Assembly: GCA_963702895.1 (NCBI GenBank)
Contig: OY969767.1
Location: 736,001-800,000, forward strand
Source: an uncultured Elusimicrobia bacterium
GTDB taxonomy: Bacteria; Elusimicrobiota; Elusimicrobia; 2-01-FULL-59-12
Length of the DNA: 64,000 nt
Direction: 5' to 3'
Made by a program: the position numbers. Of this stretch, positions 12,001 through 64,000 are shown one piece after another (within the stretch, counting starts at the first letter, position 1; each line of letters begins with the position of its first letter).

Positions 12001-15000
12001 TCGAAGAAGATGGCTTTGAACGCGGACCCGTTCCGGGACAGGCACACGAAATCAGACGCGCTCCCTTACTGGCAGGGGACGCTGGTGGGGATTGATATGA
12101 CGCTCGACCAGACGGCGGAATTTTCAAGTTTGCTGGATGTCATTGGGAGAACCTACAGCCAGGCCGTCCAGGAGCGAAAAAAAGCGAGACTCCGGAAGGC
12201 GCGTTTTATCTAAAAAGGAGGGTGCCGTGAAAACCATTTCCATTATGGAACGTGCCGGGACATTCGCCGAAAACAAGGATGTCGCGCGCGCCATTCGCCT
12301 GCAGGAGATCCTCCCCGCGCTCGAGAAGAAGGAGGAGATCGTTCTTGATTTTGACGGGGTGGAGGCCGCGACGCAGTCGTTTATCCACGCGCTCATCAGC
12401 GACGTGTTGAGAACCTACGGGAGTGAAGCGCTCGACGCGATGGTGTTTAAATCCTGCAACCTCACCATTCAGAAAATCATCCAGATCGTCATCGAGTACA
12501 TGCAGGAAGGCGATCGGTGAGCTGGCGCCCGCGCCACGGGGTTGCCGCCTCTCCGGGAGGCCGCCTTGCTGGGGCACCACCGTTCCGGATGGTCGCCTTA
12601 TCGGCGGGCGCCAGCCCAAAGTAAACATTGCAGGCTCGACGGAGGGCAGGTACAATGTCATTACGGTCATGATTCAAAACGCCCATCTCTGGAATGCTTG
12701 GGAGCGCGCTTGGCTCGCTTCTCAGAAGCCAAACTTCCAGCAATCCCTTCGAATCTTTGAGTCCATGCTCACCCAGGCGCGGCATTTGGGCGCCTTCCCA
12801 CCGAAAAACCCTTTGGAAGGGTTCCCGGAGAAAATCCTGTTTGTCCAGCGCCTCCATGTTCGAAGCGCTGCTTGAGCGGCTCGGCAACCTTCTCGACCGG
12901 TATCATATTCCCTACATGATCATCGGGGGTCAGGCTGTTCTCCTTTACGGAGAGCCACGTTTTTCGAAGGATGTGGACCTCACGCTGGGGCTCGAACCCA
13001 CCCAGGTGGGGACCTTGCTGGAAGCCCTCAAATCCGCCCACATTCAACCGCTGGTGGAAGACCCGCAGGGGTTTGTGCAAACCACCTGCGTGCTGCCCTG
13101 TCAGGATCCCGAGACAGGATTTCGTCTCGACTTTGTCTTTTCATTTTCCGATTATGAGCGTCAGGCGCTCCAGCGCGTCCGCCGCACTCTCGTCGGGAAA
13201 ACGCCGGTCGCCTTTGCCTCTGTGGAAGATCTGATCATCCATAAGATGGTGGCCGGCAGGCCTCGCGACCTGGAAGACGTGAAAGGCATTCTCATCAAGA
13301 ATCCAACACTGGACAGCCGCTACCTCCACCGCTGGCTTGAAGACTTTGAAAAAGGCCTGGCCCAACCGATTCTTCATCGCTTCAAGGAAATTCAAGAATC
13401 CCTTCGCTCGTAGCCATCCCCTATCAGAGCGGGCTTTCTGACGCCGGCTCGCCGCTTCGCCCCCTCGCCGATTCGATCATCCGCACACGCCTTCCGCGTC
13501 ACCACCGATGTTCCGGATTGTCGCCCTTTCGGCCTAGATCAAAACGAGTTGATAAATCCACCACTCCTGCTGAATAAGATGTTGATTTCTAGATGCGTTT
13601 CTGATGCCAACAATGTAACCCTCCCGTAACACCCATCTGTTAAAAATAAGCATAAGAATGAGAAGCAAGACCCATGAATCGAGTGGGCCAAACGGTCGGT
13701 TATTTTTGACCCTGCGACCCATCGTATTACCGTCGACGAAGAGATAAAGTTTTCTTGTAAGCCACAGGGGAGAGAACAGGGGAGAAAAGGGGAAAAGATG
13801 GGAGGACAGGGAAACATGGCCAAGGGAGACGGCGACATGGAAAAAGTTCGATTAAATTTTTCTGCCCCCGCGCCTGAGCCACTCCACTCTTCGCCGAGCG
13901 ATCCCATCGACAATTCGTCAGACACCCTTTCTTCCTCAAGCCTCTTCTCCCGTCTTCTCCCCCGTTCTCCCCTGTTCTCCCGTGTTCTCCCCGTCCTCCC
14001 CTGTTCTCCCTTGCGAAGCGTTTGATCTCGCTGCTTTTGGCCCTGTGCATGATCGTCGATCCCGTGTGGGCGACGGGCGTTTCGGACTTCGTCCGCGCGA
14101 GCTTCACGCACGACATCCGCGACATCATGATCCCGGCGAAGCTGGGGATGGTGACCGATAAGTGGATTGCGTCTGTATCGGAGTATCGGAGTAACGGAGT
14201 GCCGGGGTCACGTCAGAGCCGTAACTCCGCTACTCCGAAACACCGTGACTCCGATACTGTTGTTACCCCGATACCCCGATACCCCGATACTCCGGTACAG
14301 CCGTTTGTCGTCCTCATCCAAGACCTCCACGCCAACATCAGCGTCCAGCAAAATATCTCGGGCATCCTCCAGTTCCTCTACCGCCGCACGCGACTCAGCC
14401 ACATCTTCGCCGAAGCGGCCTTCGGCCCCTGCGATGTCTCCATCCTCCGAACCCTCCCCAGTCGGCGCGCGCAGAAGCGCTTTGAGAAAAAGCTACTCGA
14501 CCAGGCGCTCATCGCCGGCGACGAGCTCGCCGCCGCGCACGTGGGCGAGGGTCCCCTCTCACCCGTCAAGCTCATCGGCGTCGATGACCCGCTCCTGTAT
14601 CTGGCGAACGTCCAGGCGTTCCGTGATCTGGTTTCCAACGGCCCGCGGATCGCCGAAGAATGGAAGGCGATCCGGGACATTCTCATGCCCGGCGCGGCGC
14701 CGAGCTTGCGCCGGCACCTCGAGCTCACCGAGAAGATGCTGTCGCTCAAACTCGTCGATTACGAATGGGAACAGTACAAAGAACATAAAGATTGGACTCC
14801 TGGAAGGGCGTCCCGAGTCCCGAGTCCCGAGTCCCGCGTCCCGAGTTCCGCGTCCCGAGTCAAGGGACGGACGCAGAACCTGAACGGCCAGACGCGAAGC
14901 GCAGGACGCAAGACGCAAGACGCAGCACGCAAGACGCAGGACGCGCGACGCGTAACGCAGGACGCGAGACGCGTAACGCAGGACGCGAGACGCGAGACGC

Positions 15001-63000: not shown

Positions 63001-64000
63001 GCAGACCTTGGTTTTGACGTTGAACGGTTCAAGGAAGCCCTGAGGGCCAGCGTTGATTTCTATGTCGCCGCCCTGATGCGCAACGAGCCGATGCTGGAGA
63101 ATACGCTTGCGCTTGTACGGCAGAGCAACCCAACAACGGAGCTATCGAACAGCGGAGCAACCAAACGGCGGATCAGTCGTCCGGCGGGCCCGAAGTCTGG
63201 CAGCTCTGACTCACGGTTGTTCCGCCCCACGTCAGCTCCGCCGTCTGGTAGGTCCATCGTTCTTGTTGTGGGCGGCTTCCACACCGACTACTTCACGCGC
63301 GAGCTCTCCCGCCGCGGTGTCTCCTACGCCGTCTACGCGCCGCAGGTGGACTCACACACTCCTGCCGATGATGCGCTCTATGTTAAGCGCTTCATGGGTG
63401 AGCGTATGACGGTCAATGAAGCCACTGCCTGGATCAAAGCCCACGGTGGAATTCGTGGCTCTCCGCGTGCGTATCAAGGAGCGGGGTGGGTTCCGCCGCT
63501 TCGTGGCATTCAGGGGTGGCTGACTCCACTTGCGAGGGAATCTGAGAGAATCGGATCGTTATACGGGCTTGCGCCAACTCGATTCCTTACAAGACTACGA
63601 GATCAAAAACGATCATTAGATTTCGCGAAACGCCAACAGGTTCGAACAGGCACTCTAGACGATCTCGCTGATCCCGCCTTCGAAGATGATGAACTTGTCC
63701 CAGGTGGTATTGAACTGAAATCCGTGTTGGCTCTCCTGCTGAGACTCAGCAGCGAGTCGGATAGTTTCCCCACTTTCCCTATCAAGGAAATGGAGTTTAC
63801 TGCGGACGAAGAATTGGTTGTTGTGCGGAATCAGCCGCAAATCGAGAGAGTAAGTGTTGAGACCTGGAGAACCAAAGATCGAAGCAAATTTATTGCGATC
63901 GTTCCACGCGAAGGGAATGAGACAACCTTTAAGGCCATTATTCATGTTGACGCTATCAGGCACAACCCGACTTTCAAGGCCAACCCCTATATCTTTTGGA

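What a model noticed while it worked through the whole genome (the two positions that open the first line are those of the whole stretch)
14049..64000. Archaeovorin-like mosaic giants share an EreA/ChaN/TIKI-fold head domain
Five giant genes (g00669 12,878 aa, g00671, g00672 in one 58-kb row; g01536; g02055 6,672 aa) begin with the same signal peptide plus about 330-aa module that also exists as stand-alone proteins (g02041, g00210), and go on into long, fast-evolving unassignable stretches studded with copies of housekeeping enzyme domains (triose-phosphate isomerase, two FBP aldolase/phosphatase, GHMP kinase, PP2C, methyltransferases, M48 peptidase, receiver, LysM, SLT, glycogen-synthase GT5); with seven more giants of a second kind they take 4.7% of the genome. 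The module has no Pfam family although a profile of it finds 7,226 protein clusters, near the N-terminus of proteins of 280 to over 5,000 aa; it folds [...]
Evidence so far: Call 8: blastp, N-terminal 450-600 aa of g00669, g00671, g00672, g01536, g02055 match each other and g02041/g00210 (E 1e-11 to 1e-58). Call 51: alignment with the shared motifs. Calls 20, 22-28: no Pfam hit; 109 homologues of g02041, none with a precomputed Pfam domain; AF2 model pLDDT 83.3. Call 31: Foldseek best hits 3b55/2rad (prob 0.97/0.94) and EreC 6xcq; Calls 6, 33: Pfam domains in the giants. Call 34: 40 of 41 relatives match; frames of 1,200-11,500 aa with this head in families f1, f4, f6, f11. Call 201: profile of A1 against 1.84 billion cluster representatives: 8,884 at E<=1e-3, 7,226 at E<=1e-10, 1,624 at E< The finding spans contig positions 750049 to 807853; this window holds only 750049 to 800000 of it. 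[...]
(Added by a program. Inside this text positions count along the whole contig: contig position 736,001 is position 1 of the stretch shown here. "Call 12" and the like, gene names such as g00115 and contig names such as C1 are that model's own, and its searches are not shown. The text may have been shortened before it was handed on; [...] marks where a part breaks off. The agent that wrote the report below was given it as the finding of a first reader that could run no searches.)

Follow-up and report, generated by a model that had tools for sequence, protein, structure and literature searches.

The report
Hydrolase-like head on giant membrane proteins
Several enormous patchwork membrane proteins of an uncultivated Elusimicrobiota bacterium all start with the same small enzyme-like domain, an unrecognised relative of the Tiki/ChaN/erythromycin-esterase hydrolases that heads thousands of similar long proteins in this and a neighbouring phylum.

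Summary
One 12,878-codon frame (window 14049-52685) and four other giants share an N-terminal domain with two stand-alone proteins of 337 and 351 aa. The 3,012-aa gene between them has no head.

A cleaned profile finds 9,366 protein clusters (8,111 at E<=1e-10). In all 150 listed, the match starts at residues 1-71, in proteins of 267-5,482 aa.

New here:
- A partial sequence link to Pfam PF04187 (ChaN, Tiki superfamily): 15 of 51 relatives hit below threshold, and 3 giant heads in related genomes pass it.
- A near-invariant D-x-H / E / R / GGFH set in 161 heads, laid out like the Tiki 2His/2Glu site.
- Only the head is conserved between genomes.

Best reading: an exported Tiki-superfamily hydrolase domain heading archaeovorin-like mosaic envelope proteins. 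Substrate, catalysis and topology are untested. I class it as a new variant of a known kind, interest about 0.65.

The parts
14022..52685 (+). g00669. One open frame of 12,887 codons from TTG 14022, or 12,878 from ATG 14049. A giant mosaic protein with many membrane passes.
   Evidence: 26 hydrophobic 19-mers with mean Kyte-Doolittle score >=1.7. About 90% has no Pfam or PDB sequence match.
14022..14072 (+). Hydrophobic leader LISLLLALCMIVDPVWA. It is present only if translation starts at TTG 14022.
   Evidence: By eye it resembles the 'LLLVPCL.DP' leaders of the seven second-kind giants listed.
14130..15398 (+). Head domain of g00669 (aa about 28-450). Putative site residues are D92, H94, Q100, E122, R338, H408.
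   Evidence: The A2 profile scores 398.5 bits here.
14175..14298 (+). 8-nt tandem repeats (GTATCGGA / ACTCCGAT), read in frame as a loop insertion just before the first strand of the head.
   Evidence: The peptide VSEYRS..TPIPRYPDT recurs in many ORFs of the genome.
14808..15232 (+). 7-, 21- and 8-nt tandem repeat arrays, read in frame as insertions between the helical part and the last strand (GGFH) of the head.
16353..16478 (+). LysM domain (aa 769-810).
   Evidence: E 4e-8, 33.5 bits. PDB 4uz2.
34671..34997 (+). SLT lytic transglycosylase domain (aa 6875-6983).
   Evidence: E 6e-24. SLT70-type structures at E 1e-9. The closest matches in relatives are small 200-265-aa frames at 39-48% identity. 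The genome has its own 240-aa paralogue.
46521..47570 (+). Possible GH5-like (beta/alpha)8 glycosidase region (aa 10825-11174). A lead only.
   Evidence: Atlas feature search: 0.92 to PF00150 / GH5 clusters, with all ten best named hits in one clan. The single-sequence AF2 model failed at pLDDT 35. BLASTP to the genome's GH5-like protein gives E 0.049. No Pfam hit.
48705..48731 (+). SHELAHVQQ, an HExxH zincin-type motif (aa 11553-11561).
   Evidence: Weak eCIS_core / DUF4157 hit, E 0.022.
48978..49334 (+). SAM-dependent methyltransferase domain (aa 11644-11762).
   Evidence: MTS, E 6e-11..
49824..51305 (+). Glycogen/starch-synthase-like GT5 domain followed by a weak GT1 half (aa 11926-12419).
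   Evidence: Glyco_transf_5, E 9e-23. Glycos_transf_1, E 0.006. The genome has its own 521-aa paralogue.
52233..52682 (+). C-terminal 'tail' module: a hydrophobic hairpin followed by RRVAWHEKLVHAVPGG.
   Evidence: Found only here and twice in the next gene.
52797..61835 (+). Head-less 3,012-aa mosaic neighbour (probably g00670). It carries a DnaJ domain, two HExGH motifs (one with a sub-threshold Peptidase_M50 hit) and two copies of the tail module (window 56016-56390 and 59910-60284).
62005..64000 (+). Start of g00671 (1,529 aa; runs on to contig 802594). A signal-peptide-like leader, then the head (window about 62143-63414) with D75, H77, E106, R359, H426.
   Evidence: A2 profile 370 bits.

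Best explanation
The five giants are real single genes. They encode mosaic, membrane-threaded envelope proteins of the kind described for Omnitrophota: 'archaeovorins', or 'multi-enzyme' long proteins.

Each begins with a Sec-type signal-peptide-like leader followed by a domain of about 300 aa. I read this domain as a divergent, so far unmodelled branch of the Tiki/ChaN/EreA (TraB/PrgY/GumN) hydrolase superfamily.

Its near-invariant D-x-H, E (30 residues later), R and GGFH residues sit at the C-terminal ends of neighbouring strands of a parallel beta-sheet. This is the layout of the superfamily's 2His/2Glu water-activating site. I therefore infer an active, exported hydrolase (peptidase or esterase), not a mere scaffold.

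The head is the one constant part. The body behind it is rebuilt quickly from unassignable stretches, membrane hairpins and diverged copies of housekeeping enzymes.

Shown:
- the genes
- the shared head
- family size and N-terminal position
- the predicted fold match
- the partial PF04187 link
- residue conservation
- head-only conservation between genomes

Inferred:
- homology of the N-terminal half
- residue-for-residue equivalence of the catalytic site
- export
- catalysis
- the substrate, which could be an envelope or prey-surface component, or the giant itself
For: Genes and head. An uninterrupted 38.6-kb frame. Head on 5 giants and 2 stand-alone ORFs.

Family. Profile A2 finds 9,366 / 8,111 / 5,425 clusters at E<=1e-3 / 1e-10 / 1e-30. 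In all 150 of the 150 listed, the match starts at residues 1-71, in proteins of 267-5,482 aa.

Fold.
- AF2 pLDDT 82.9, pTM 0.76.
- Foldseek's only hit at E<=1e-3 is Bcr135 (3b55), followed by EreC, 2rad, 2qgm and ChaN.
- Unrelated methylases at similar Z align only about 100 residues.

Sequence link.
- PF04187 hits 15 of 51 members (E 2e-4 to 0.09), mostly at profile positions about 162-204 and three times over longer spans. None reaches the cut-off.
- In 201 genomes of the phylum, PF04187 also hits long frames of 1,261-4,771 aa. Three are over the 27.7-bit cut-off.
- All six such loci that I fetched match the head profile at E 1e-39 to 1e-44.
- hhalign of the head C-half against canonical ChaN gives E 0.0044 and aligns GGFH to GnGH.

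Conservation in 161 heads: H65 161, Q71 161, R271 161, E95 160, H298 159, D63 153 (the other 8 are N).

Site layout. The Tiki site in RRSP is E3900, H3902, E3930, H4030. In Bcr135 it is H85 and E113 (PMC6254334, passages read). The head has D63-x-H65, then E95 at +30.

Strand ends. H65, E95 and H298 follow strands 56-63, 90-94 and 288-295 of the model.

Head-only conservation. With aa 1-3000 of g00669 as query, all 84 listed matches in 5 genomes fall within aa 4-457. This includes a 52-59% identical head on a 3,476-aa frame in the same-family genome.
Against: - The N-terminal half, which carries D-x-H and E, has no profile-level link to ChaN (E 0.41, misaligned).
- The 7-sequence profile finds nothing in the PDB by sequence.
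- None of the seven local copies reaches any Pfam or NCBIfam threshold.
- I could not superpose residues, so catalytic equivalence rests on pattern and spacing. The first acidic residue is Asp, not Glu.
- C. jejuni ChaN, the top structural match, is titled a haem binder (2g5g entry title).
- Export gives a paradox. In g00672 no hydrophobic segment separates the leader from the two FBPase_3 copies, so a sugar-phosphate enzyme domain would lie outside the cytoplasm together with the head.
- My crude hydropathy count would place SLT on the wrong side of the membrane.
Confidence: 0.6

Rival explanations
1. The head has the Tiki/ChaN fold but is not an enzyme. It would be a ligand-binding or docking module (haem or another cofactor, as in ChaN) or a folding and anchoring platform. 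Its role would be to hold the first exported part of the giant at the envelope.
For: - The only sequence link is to the ChaN family.
- PMT keeps the fold without the catalytic motif (PMC6254334).
- The strictly N-terminal position in all 150 of the 150 listed proteins would also suit a targeting or assembly role.
Against: - Near-total invariance of His, Glu, Arg and His across 161 very divergent heads is typical of a reactive site.
- The canonical ChaN-family proteins of this phylum themselves keep GE.HD, GfEM and GnGH.
- Highly conserved stand-alone copies, 57-81% identical across about 100 clusters, argue for a function independent of any giant body.
Confidence: 0.2
2. The head is an unrelated, new alpha/beta (Rossmann-like) domain. 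In this reading the resemblance to Tiki, ChaN and EreA is a generic three-layer sandwich plus a chance GxxH motif.
For: - Foldseek TM-scores are about 0.2 with rmsd 14-19 A.
- The N-terminal half shows no profile similarity.
- The PDB profile search finds nothing.
Against: - All solved members of one superfamily are retrieved together, with 160-190 aligned residues across the whole model. The methylases align about 100.
- Foldseek and VIA agree independently.
- Among the 51 members scanned, PF04187 is the family that recurs most often below threshold, usually at the same profile region (15 of 51). StiP recurs in 4. PF04187 also crosses its curated cut-off in three relatives.
- The order and spacing of the motifs match.
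Confidence: 0.13
3. The giant frames are not functional single genes. They would be fused pseudogenes, assembly chimeras or runs of separate genes.
For: - In the same-family genome the counterpart appears as two neighbouring frames on the same strand, of 3,476 and 4,477 aa.
- No RNA data were available.
Against: - 12,878 codons without a stop in about 60% GC DNA cannot arise by chance.
- The genome is a single contig.
- Real domains lie in frame along the whole length.
- Frames of 6,000-12,656 aa with the same head recur in other genomes.
Confidence: 0.02

Closest known systems
ChaN / Pfam PF04187 (Cofac_haem_bdg, 'Haem-binding uptake, Tiki superfamily')
   Same: - The only family with a sequence signal: 15 of 51 members below threshold, and 3 relatives over the cut-off.
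- GGFH aligns with the family's GnGH.
- Both are exported proteins of about 300 aa in their stand-alone form.
   Different: - The local copies do not reach the cut-off. The best is E 0.1, for one of seven.
- The head profile does not hit 20 canonical ChaN proteins of the same phylum at E<=1.
- The N-terminal half is unrelated at profile level.
- The motif is QDLH instead of GExH.
- Most members are fused to bodies of 1,000-12,000 aa.
Erythromycin esterases EreA/B/C and Bacillus Bcr135/Bcr136 (PF05139)
   Same: - Top Foldseek hits: 3b55 at E 5e-4 and probability 0.97, then 6xcq, 2rad and 2qgm.
- A His...Glu pair about 28-30 residues apart plus a late His, as in Bcr135 H85/E113 (PMC6254334).
   Different: - No sequence hit to PF05139 at E<=10.
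- The Ere proteins are cytoplasmic enzymes of about 400 aa with a large helical lid (my recollection).
- The head has a shorter helical insert that varies between copies.
TIKI1/2, PrgY/TraB, RRSP and HopBA1 (the Tiki superfamily proper)
   Same: - An acidic-x-His, Glu, His set like the 2His/2Glu site that is essential in RRSP (PMC6254334).
- A signal peptide, then an extracytoplasmic Tiki domain, then membrane anchor(s). This is my recollection of the TIKI and PrgY architecture and was not checked here.
   Different: - No sequence link to PF01963 was seen.
- The bodies are thousands of residues long.
- The substrate is unknown.
- Neither metal dependence nor peptidase activity has been tested.
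Archaeovorins (West-Roberts et al. 2023, bioRxiv 10.1101/2023.11.21.568195) and 'multi-enzyme' long proteins of Omnitrophota (bioRxiv 10.64898/2026.06.07.730766)
   Same: - Many transmembrane segments.
- Long unassignable stretches.
- Embedded GT, methyltransferase, SLT, TIM, FBPase, peptidase and receiver domains. These are compared with the passages read.
- The head itself occurs on Omnitrophota proteins. Examples are P0206 (4,600 aa, with methyltransferase domains), P0275 (with GHMP kinase) and P0114.
   Different: - The phylum is Elusimicrobiota.
- The size is 1.5-12.9k aa, against >=30k for 'giant'.
- No NUDIX, HEAT or SecA domain was detected in g00669.
- The main texts of both preprints report C39 or S8 peptidases, or no domain, at the N-terminus. 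'Tiki' and 'erythromycin esterase' occur 0 times.

Membership tests
Tiki / TraB / ChaN / EreA superfamily | An alpha/beta fold with a central parallel beta-sheet flanked by helices, shared by ChaN, Bcr135/136, EreC, HopBA1, RRSP and PMT (PMC6254334). | tested here: met
   - The AF2 model has pLDDT 82.9.
- Foldseek's top hit is 3b55.
Tiki / TraB / ChaN / EreA superfamily | The 2His/2Glu set: E-x-H on the first strand, Glu about 28 residues on, and a late GxxH His. | tested here: inconclusive
   - Present as D63-x-H65, E95 (+30) and H298, plus R271.
- Conserved in 153-161 of 161 heads and in all 7 local copies.
- These residues lie at strand ends in the model.
- The first acidic residue is Asp.
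- Residue-level superposition on a solved site could not be done with these tools.
Pfam PF04187 (ChaN, Cofac_haem_bdg) | A score at or above the curated gathering cut-off of 27.7 bits. | tested here: not met
   - Of the seven local heads, one hit at 13 bits (E 0.1) and six had none.
- 0 of 51 relatives reach the cut-off, while 15 of 51 hit below threshold.
- Three heads on long frames in related genomes do pass, at 31.2, 29.8 and 28.2 bits.
Pfam PF04187 (ChaN, Cofac_haem_bdg) | Cofacial haem binding, as in C. jejuni ChaN. | not testable with these tools
   Only the fold match to 2g5g is available.
Erythromycin esterase (PF05139) | Sequence membership, and macrolide esterase activity. | tested here: not met
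   There was no PF05139 hit at E<=10 for the 7 heads, or at E<=0.1 for 51 relatives. Activity cannot be tested here.
Archaeovorin (West-Roberts 2023) | An Omnitrophota protein of >=30,000 aa. | tested here: not met
   The relatives are Elusimicrobiota. The longest protein is 12,878 aa.
Archaeovorin (West-Roberts 2023) | Many TM segments with glycosyltransferase, methyltransferase, glycosyl hydrolase, peptidase, SLT and glycolytic-enzyme domains. | tested here: met
   - 26 hydrophobic segments.
- GT5, methyltransferase, SLT and LysM.
- TIM, FBPase_3, GHMP kinase, PP2C, M48 and receiver in the sister giants.
- The glycosyl hydrolase is only a lead.
Archaeovorin (West-Roberts 2023) | NUDIX, HEAT repeats and an embedded SecA DEAD-like domain. 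| tested here: not met
   None was found in g00669 at E<=0.5. The upstream 4,068-aa giant has a ResIII / helicase-type hit.

The most novel reading that the evidence does not exclude
The Tiki-like head would be the defining 'starter' enzyme of a vast, unrecognised class of giant envelope proteins shared by Elusimicrobiota and Omnitrophota. It would act on the giant itself, as a processing peptidase that cuts the exported polyprotein into working modules, or as an obligatory maturation step at the start of export. Thousands of giants, which take up to about a tenth of some genomes, would then be polyprotein precursors governed by a single catalytic head.
Probability: 0.12. Interest if true: 0.85.

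Novelty: new variant of a known kind. Interest (0 to 1): 0.65.

Why it matters
Huge proteins of Elusimicrobiota and Omnitrophota are known to be frequent but are essentially uncharacterised (PMC11573180 and the two preprints; passages read).

This finding gives them a common, recognisable handle. It is a small, strongly conserved, probably catalytic N-terminal domain with more than 8,000 clusters at 50% identity, and none of the local copies is caught by any curated model.
- In a sample of 201 genomes of the phylum it occurs in 65.
- Single genomes carry at least 18-22 head-bearing frames. In one 3.4-Mb genome these sum to about 122,000 codons, roughly a tenth of the DNA.

Stand-alone versions of 337 and 351 aa exist. 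The biochemistry of the head is therefore testable without having to express a giant.

The contrast between a conserved head and a free-running body also offers a way to classify these proteins and to trace their evolution.

Tried and rejected
- PDB sequence search with the 7-head profile: only chance-level hits, E >= 0.5.
- NCBIfam: nothing meaningful.
- hhalign of the whole head, and of its N-terminal half, against 20 canonical ChaN proteins. Only the C-terminal GGFH unit aligns (E 0.035, or 0.0044 for the C half alone). The N half gives E 0.41 and is misaligned. My first ChaN set held three wrong-strand ORFs and was redone.
- The search for related loci used a single narrow peptide pattern. 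It returned 28 close relatives: 27 Elusimicrobiota MAGs and one labelled Deltaproteobacteria. It says nothing about the wider range.
- Literature search for 'DUF399' matched DUF3996 of Borrelia by word start. This was a false lead.
- Gene neighbourhoods of the two stand-alone heads gave no functional clue. One sits among PilT-type ATPases, a cNMP-binding protein, an epimerase and a GH5-like protein. The other sits among NlpC/P60, an MR/MLE enzyme, DUF819 and a prepilin-type protein.
- RNA evidence: no RNA holder was listed, and the single DNA run held 5% of the words. I did not lay reads.
- GH5-like region of g00669: the single-sequence AF2 model was unusable at pLDDT 35.3. BLASTP to the genome's GH5-like protein gave E 0.049. 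It stays a lead from the Atlas.
- A topology count from simple hydropathy would put SLT inside the cell, so I do not trust it.
- The tail module of g00669 is not a general feature. It occurs only in g00669 and the next gene.
- Size or frame slips that I corrected: too long, split into; wrong frame, redone; protein over 3,000 aa, redone.

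
Full report
WHAT IS THERE

The window lies in a single-contig genome of 2,724,539 bp and 57% GC. 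From window 14022 (TTG) or 14049 (ATG) to 52685 runs one open frame of 12,887 or 12,878 codons. It is followed by a 3,012-codon ORF (52797-61835). After that comes an ORF that starts at 62005 and runs to contig position 802594 (1,529 aa). A fourth long ORF follows outside the window (contig 802676-807853, 1,725 aa). The genome has 30 ORFs of at least 1,500 codons. Together they cover 11.6% of the DNA.

THE SHARED HEAD

I ran phmmer with the first 620 residues of two of the giants against every six-frame ORF of the genome. The same N-terminal module appears on five long frames:
- 12,887 aa
- 1,529 aa
- 1,725 aa
- 1,964 aa
- 6,672 aa

It also appears on two stand-alone ORFs of 337 and 351 aa. 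The 3,012-aa ORF in the middle of the row has no head.

The seven-way alignment has 22 invariant columns. The notable ones, in the numbering of the 337-aa protein, are I61-Q-D63-x-H65, Q71, E95, R271, G295-G-F-H298-T and P318. The positions in all seven proteins are listed.

Each protein begins with a signal-peptide-like leader: a basic stretch, then 10-15 hydrophobic residues, then small residues. The leaders are alike in kind, not in sequence.

In g00669 the head is interrupted in frame, at loops, by tandem arrays of 7- and 8-nt repeats.

HOW BIG THE FAMILY IS

I built a 14-row alignment in which the short forms outnumber the long ones, so that the variable helical insert is not modelled (A2). 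I searched it against 1.84 billion cluster representatives. It found 9,366 proteins at E<=1e-3, 8,111 at E<=1e-10 and 5,425 at E<=1e-30. In all 150 of the 150 listed, the match begins at residues 1-71, in proteins of 267 to 5,482 aa.

In a sample of 201 genomes of the phylum, 65 have the head, from 33 of 77 genera. The distribution by family is patchy. One family has it in 40 of 63 genomes, another in 0 of 58.

Named relatives are Elusimicrobiota, Endomicrobium and Candidatus Omnitrophica/Omnitrophota, plus one MAG labelled Deltaproteobacteria. The protein-atlas search also puts Omnitrophota clusters without any Pfam family next to the Elusimicrobiota ones.

WHAT THE HEAD IS

With the A2 alignment, AF2 gives a confident model: pLDDT 82.9 and pTM 0.76. 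Parallel strands alternate with helices, and there is a long helical insert.

Foldseek's single hit at E<=1e-3 is Bcr135 (3b55). EreC, 2rad, 2qgm and, further down, ChaN follow. TM-scores are only about 0.2.

A search that does not depend on Foldseek, against 48,161 chains, ranks these members (one search agrees):

|---|---|---|
| ChaN | 9.1 | 187 |
| EreC | 8.4 | 172 |
| HopBA1 | 8.3 | 167 (17% identity) |
| Bcr135 / Bcr136 | 7.5 | 185 / 163 |
| PMT | 6.3 | 154 |
| RRSP | 5.7 | 163 |

A SEQUENCE-LEVEL LINK, PARTIAL

None of the seven local heads reaches a Pfam or NCBIfam cut-off. The only hint is PF04187 (ChaN, 'Tiki superfamily') at E 0.1 on one of them.

Among 51 relatives, however, 15 hit PF04187 at E from 2e-4 to 0.09. 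Twelve hit at profile positions about 162-204 and three over longer spans. None reaches the 27.7-bit cut-off.

I searched PF04187 across 201 genomes of the phylum. It finds canonical ChaN proteins (frames of 270-400 aa, 170-204 bits). It also finds frames of 1,261-4,771 aa, three of them over the cut-off at 31.2, 29.8 and 28.2 bits. I fetched six of these long-frame loci, and all match the head profile at E 1e-39 to 1e-44. The 20 canonical ChaN proteins do not match the head profile at E<=1.

Profile-profile comparison aligns '...R..M..N....VLVaGGFHT' with the ChaN family's '...WNE.M.......lvIaGnGH', at E 0.035 for the whole head and 0.0044 for the C-terminal half alone. The N-terminal half gives nothing.

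The head is therefore a separate family. Its last strand-helix unit is recognisably ChaN-like. The homology of the rest rests on the predicted fold.

A CATALYTIC-LOOKING SITE

In 161 aligned heads, conservation is as follows:

| Residue | Conserved in (of 161) |
|---|---|
| H65 | 161 |
| Q71 | 161 |
| R271 | 161 |
| G174 | 161 |
| E95 | 160 |
| Y265 | 160 |
| H298 | 159 |
| D63 | 153 (the other 8 are N) |

In the model, H65, E95 and H298 directly follow strands 56-63, 90-94 and 288-295. That is where active sites of parallel sheets lie.

The Tiki site is '2His/2Glu'. In RRSP it is E3900-x-H3902, E3930 (28 residues on) and H4030. In Bcr135 it is H85 and E113 (PMC6254334). The head has D63-x-H65, E95 (30 residues on) and H298. 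The canonical ChaN proteins of this phylum show GE.HD, GfEM and GnGH in the same order.

This is a match of pattern and spacing. I could not superpose coordinates.

THE BODIES

In g00669, Pfam finds only these domains:
- LysM (aa 769-810)
- SLT (6875-6983)
- a small methyltransferase domain (11644-11762)
- GT5 (11926-12198)

At looser thresholds there are also a weak GT1 half and an HExxH motif with a weak eCIS_core hit. PDB sequence searches add nothing. About nine tenths of the protein is unassigned. A GH5-like region (aa 10825-11174) is only a lead.

The sister giants carry the following:
- g00672: two tandem FBPase_3 copies
- g01536: TIM, lacking the first 53 profile positions, and GHMP kinase
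- g02055: PP2C, methyltransferase, M48 and receiver

Normal-sized paralogues of SLT, the methyltransferase, glycogen synthase and TIM exist elsewhere in the genome. The embedded copies are diverged from them, at E 1e-7 to 1e-39.

Ten long head-bearing proteins from other organisms show the same thin scatter of domains: methyltransferases, sigma-70 region 4, M48, ABC1 kinase, HEAT and PP2C. Three of the ten have none at E<=1e-5.

g00669 has 26 strongly hydrophobic segments.

HEAD CONSTANT, BODY FREE

I used residues 1-3000 of g00669 as query against five genomes. All 84 listed matches fall within residues 4-457. The same-family genome has a head that is 52-59% identical, but it sits on a 3,476-aa frame, and nothing matches residues 458-3000.

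With residues 6001-9000 as query, the same-family genome matches only residues 121-845 of the query, at 33% identity. That match is on a 4,477-aa frame lying about 12 kb from its head match, on the same strand. Everything else hits only the SLT part, on small frames of 200-479 aa.

The same search shows how far this family has expanded elsewhere. One 2.6-Mb genome has at least 22 distinct head-bearing frames. One 3.4-Mb genome has at least 18 such frames of 2,423-12,656 aa. These sum to about 122,000 codons, roughly a tenth of that genome. The figures are stop-to-stop frame lengths, and the genome size is rounded.

HOW IT MOST LIKELY WORKS

My best reading has four steps.
1. The leader takes the N-terminus across the cytoplasmic membrane.
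2. The head folds outside as a Tiki-type hydrolase.
3. The rest of the chain is threaded back and forth through the membrane. Wall-directed modules (LysM, SLT) are displayed on one side. Nucleotide-sugar- and SAM-using modules lie on the other.
4. Whether the head cuts a peptide or an ester is open. So is whether its substrate is the cell's own envelope, another cell's surface or the giant itself.

The highly conserved stand-alone copy argues that the activity does not need a giant body in cis. It is 57-81% identical in roughly 100 clusters.

A real difficulty remains. In g00672, no hydrophobic segment lies between the leader and the two FBPase_3 copies. Those copies would therefore be outside the cytoplasm with the head. 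The preprints on Omnitrophota giants report the same puzzle.

COMPARISON WITH WHAT IS KNOWN

Proteins of 10,000 aa or more are reported as frequent in Elusimicrobiota. Archaeovorins of Omnitrophota are described with GT, methyltransferase, SLT, TIM, FBPase and peptidase domains and many membrane segments (West-Roberts et al. 2023, passages read). A 2026 preprint defines a 'multi-enzyme' class of signal-peptide-plus-TM long proteins. A survey notes that the huge proteins of these phyla have no functional assignment (PMC11573180). The giants themselves are therefore new members of a known kind.

The main texts of the two preprints do not contain 'Tiki' or 'erythromycin esterase'. They describe the N-terminal regions as lacking identifiable domains, apart from C39 or S8 peptidases. 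A six-term search found no paper that joins these phyla with this superfamily.

I therefore rate the head as a new variant of a known kind: a new, very large family of the Tiki superfamily in a new architectural role.

VERDICT

| Claim | My estimate |
|---|---|
| Superfamily assignment | about 0.8 |
| Active exported hydrolase | about 0.5 |
| Combined statement | 0.6 |

Interest: 0.65.

Noticed in passing
window 13941-14010, 14175-14298, 14808-15232: Arrays of 7-, 8-, 10- and 21-nt tandem repeats, partly in inverted orientation (GTATCGGA / ACTCCGAT). They lie just upstream of g00669 and inside its head-coding region. Inside the gene they are translated in frame as loop insertions (VSEYRS...TPIPRYPDT). 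The same peptide recurs in many ORFs of the genome.
   Followed up: partly
window 52797-61835: A head-less 3,012-aa mosaic gene with a DnaJ domain, two HExGH motifs (one with a weak Peptidase_M50 hit), an HIHAHW (HIT-like) motif and its own leader. It shares a 125-aa hairpin-plus-RRVAWHEKLVH module, twice, with the C-terminus of g00669 and with nothing else in the genome.
   Followed up: partly
L001:4672-9849 (contig 802676-807853): The only recognisable fructose-1,6-bisphosphatase of this single-contig genome is the pair of tandem FBPase_3 copies inside giant g00672. PF00316 and PF03320 find nothing at E<=0.001, and PF01950 hits only here. No hydrophobic segment separates them from the signal-peptide-like leader.
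   Followed up: partly
window 7289-13413: Between the upstream giant and g00669 lies a patch of defence or accessory-type genes. It holds two AAA_14 + DUF4143 ATPases, an NTP_transf_2 nucleotidyltransferase, an HATPase_c_2 protein next to a DUF4325 (STAS-like) protein, and an AbiEii/DUF6036-type nucleotidyltransferase. GC is 54-56%, against 59-64% in the giants.
   Followed up: partly
window 2-6682 (contig 730476-742682): The C-terminal 2,226 aa of another giant (4,068 aa) that lacks the head. It has a ResIII / helicase-type hit. Here the SecA-like part is on a separate giant next to the head-bearing row.
   Followed up: no
window 14022-14072; contig 93226, 222921, 298451, 450829, 1099294, 1401941, 1417356: If g00669 starts at TTG 14022, its leader (LISLLLALCMIVDPVWA) resembles the conserved 'LLLVPCL.DP' leader of the seven second-kind giants. 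In that case g00669 joins that leader to the head.
   Followed up: no
There are at least 22 in a 2.6-Mb genome. The window's own genome, with five, is at the low end.
   Followed up: partly
[not shown]
   Followed up: no
contig 31591-72663 (minus strand): The genome's longest frame (13,690 aa) has a single N-terminal hydrophobic segment and no head. It is a third kind of giant.
   Followed up: no
window 16046-16137: A 45-nt unit repeated twice (93% match) inside g00669. It encodes LRLQLATDVPADPVD / LRLKLATDVPADRG.
   Followed up: no
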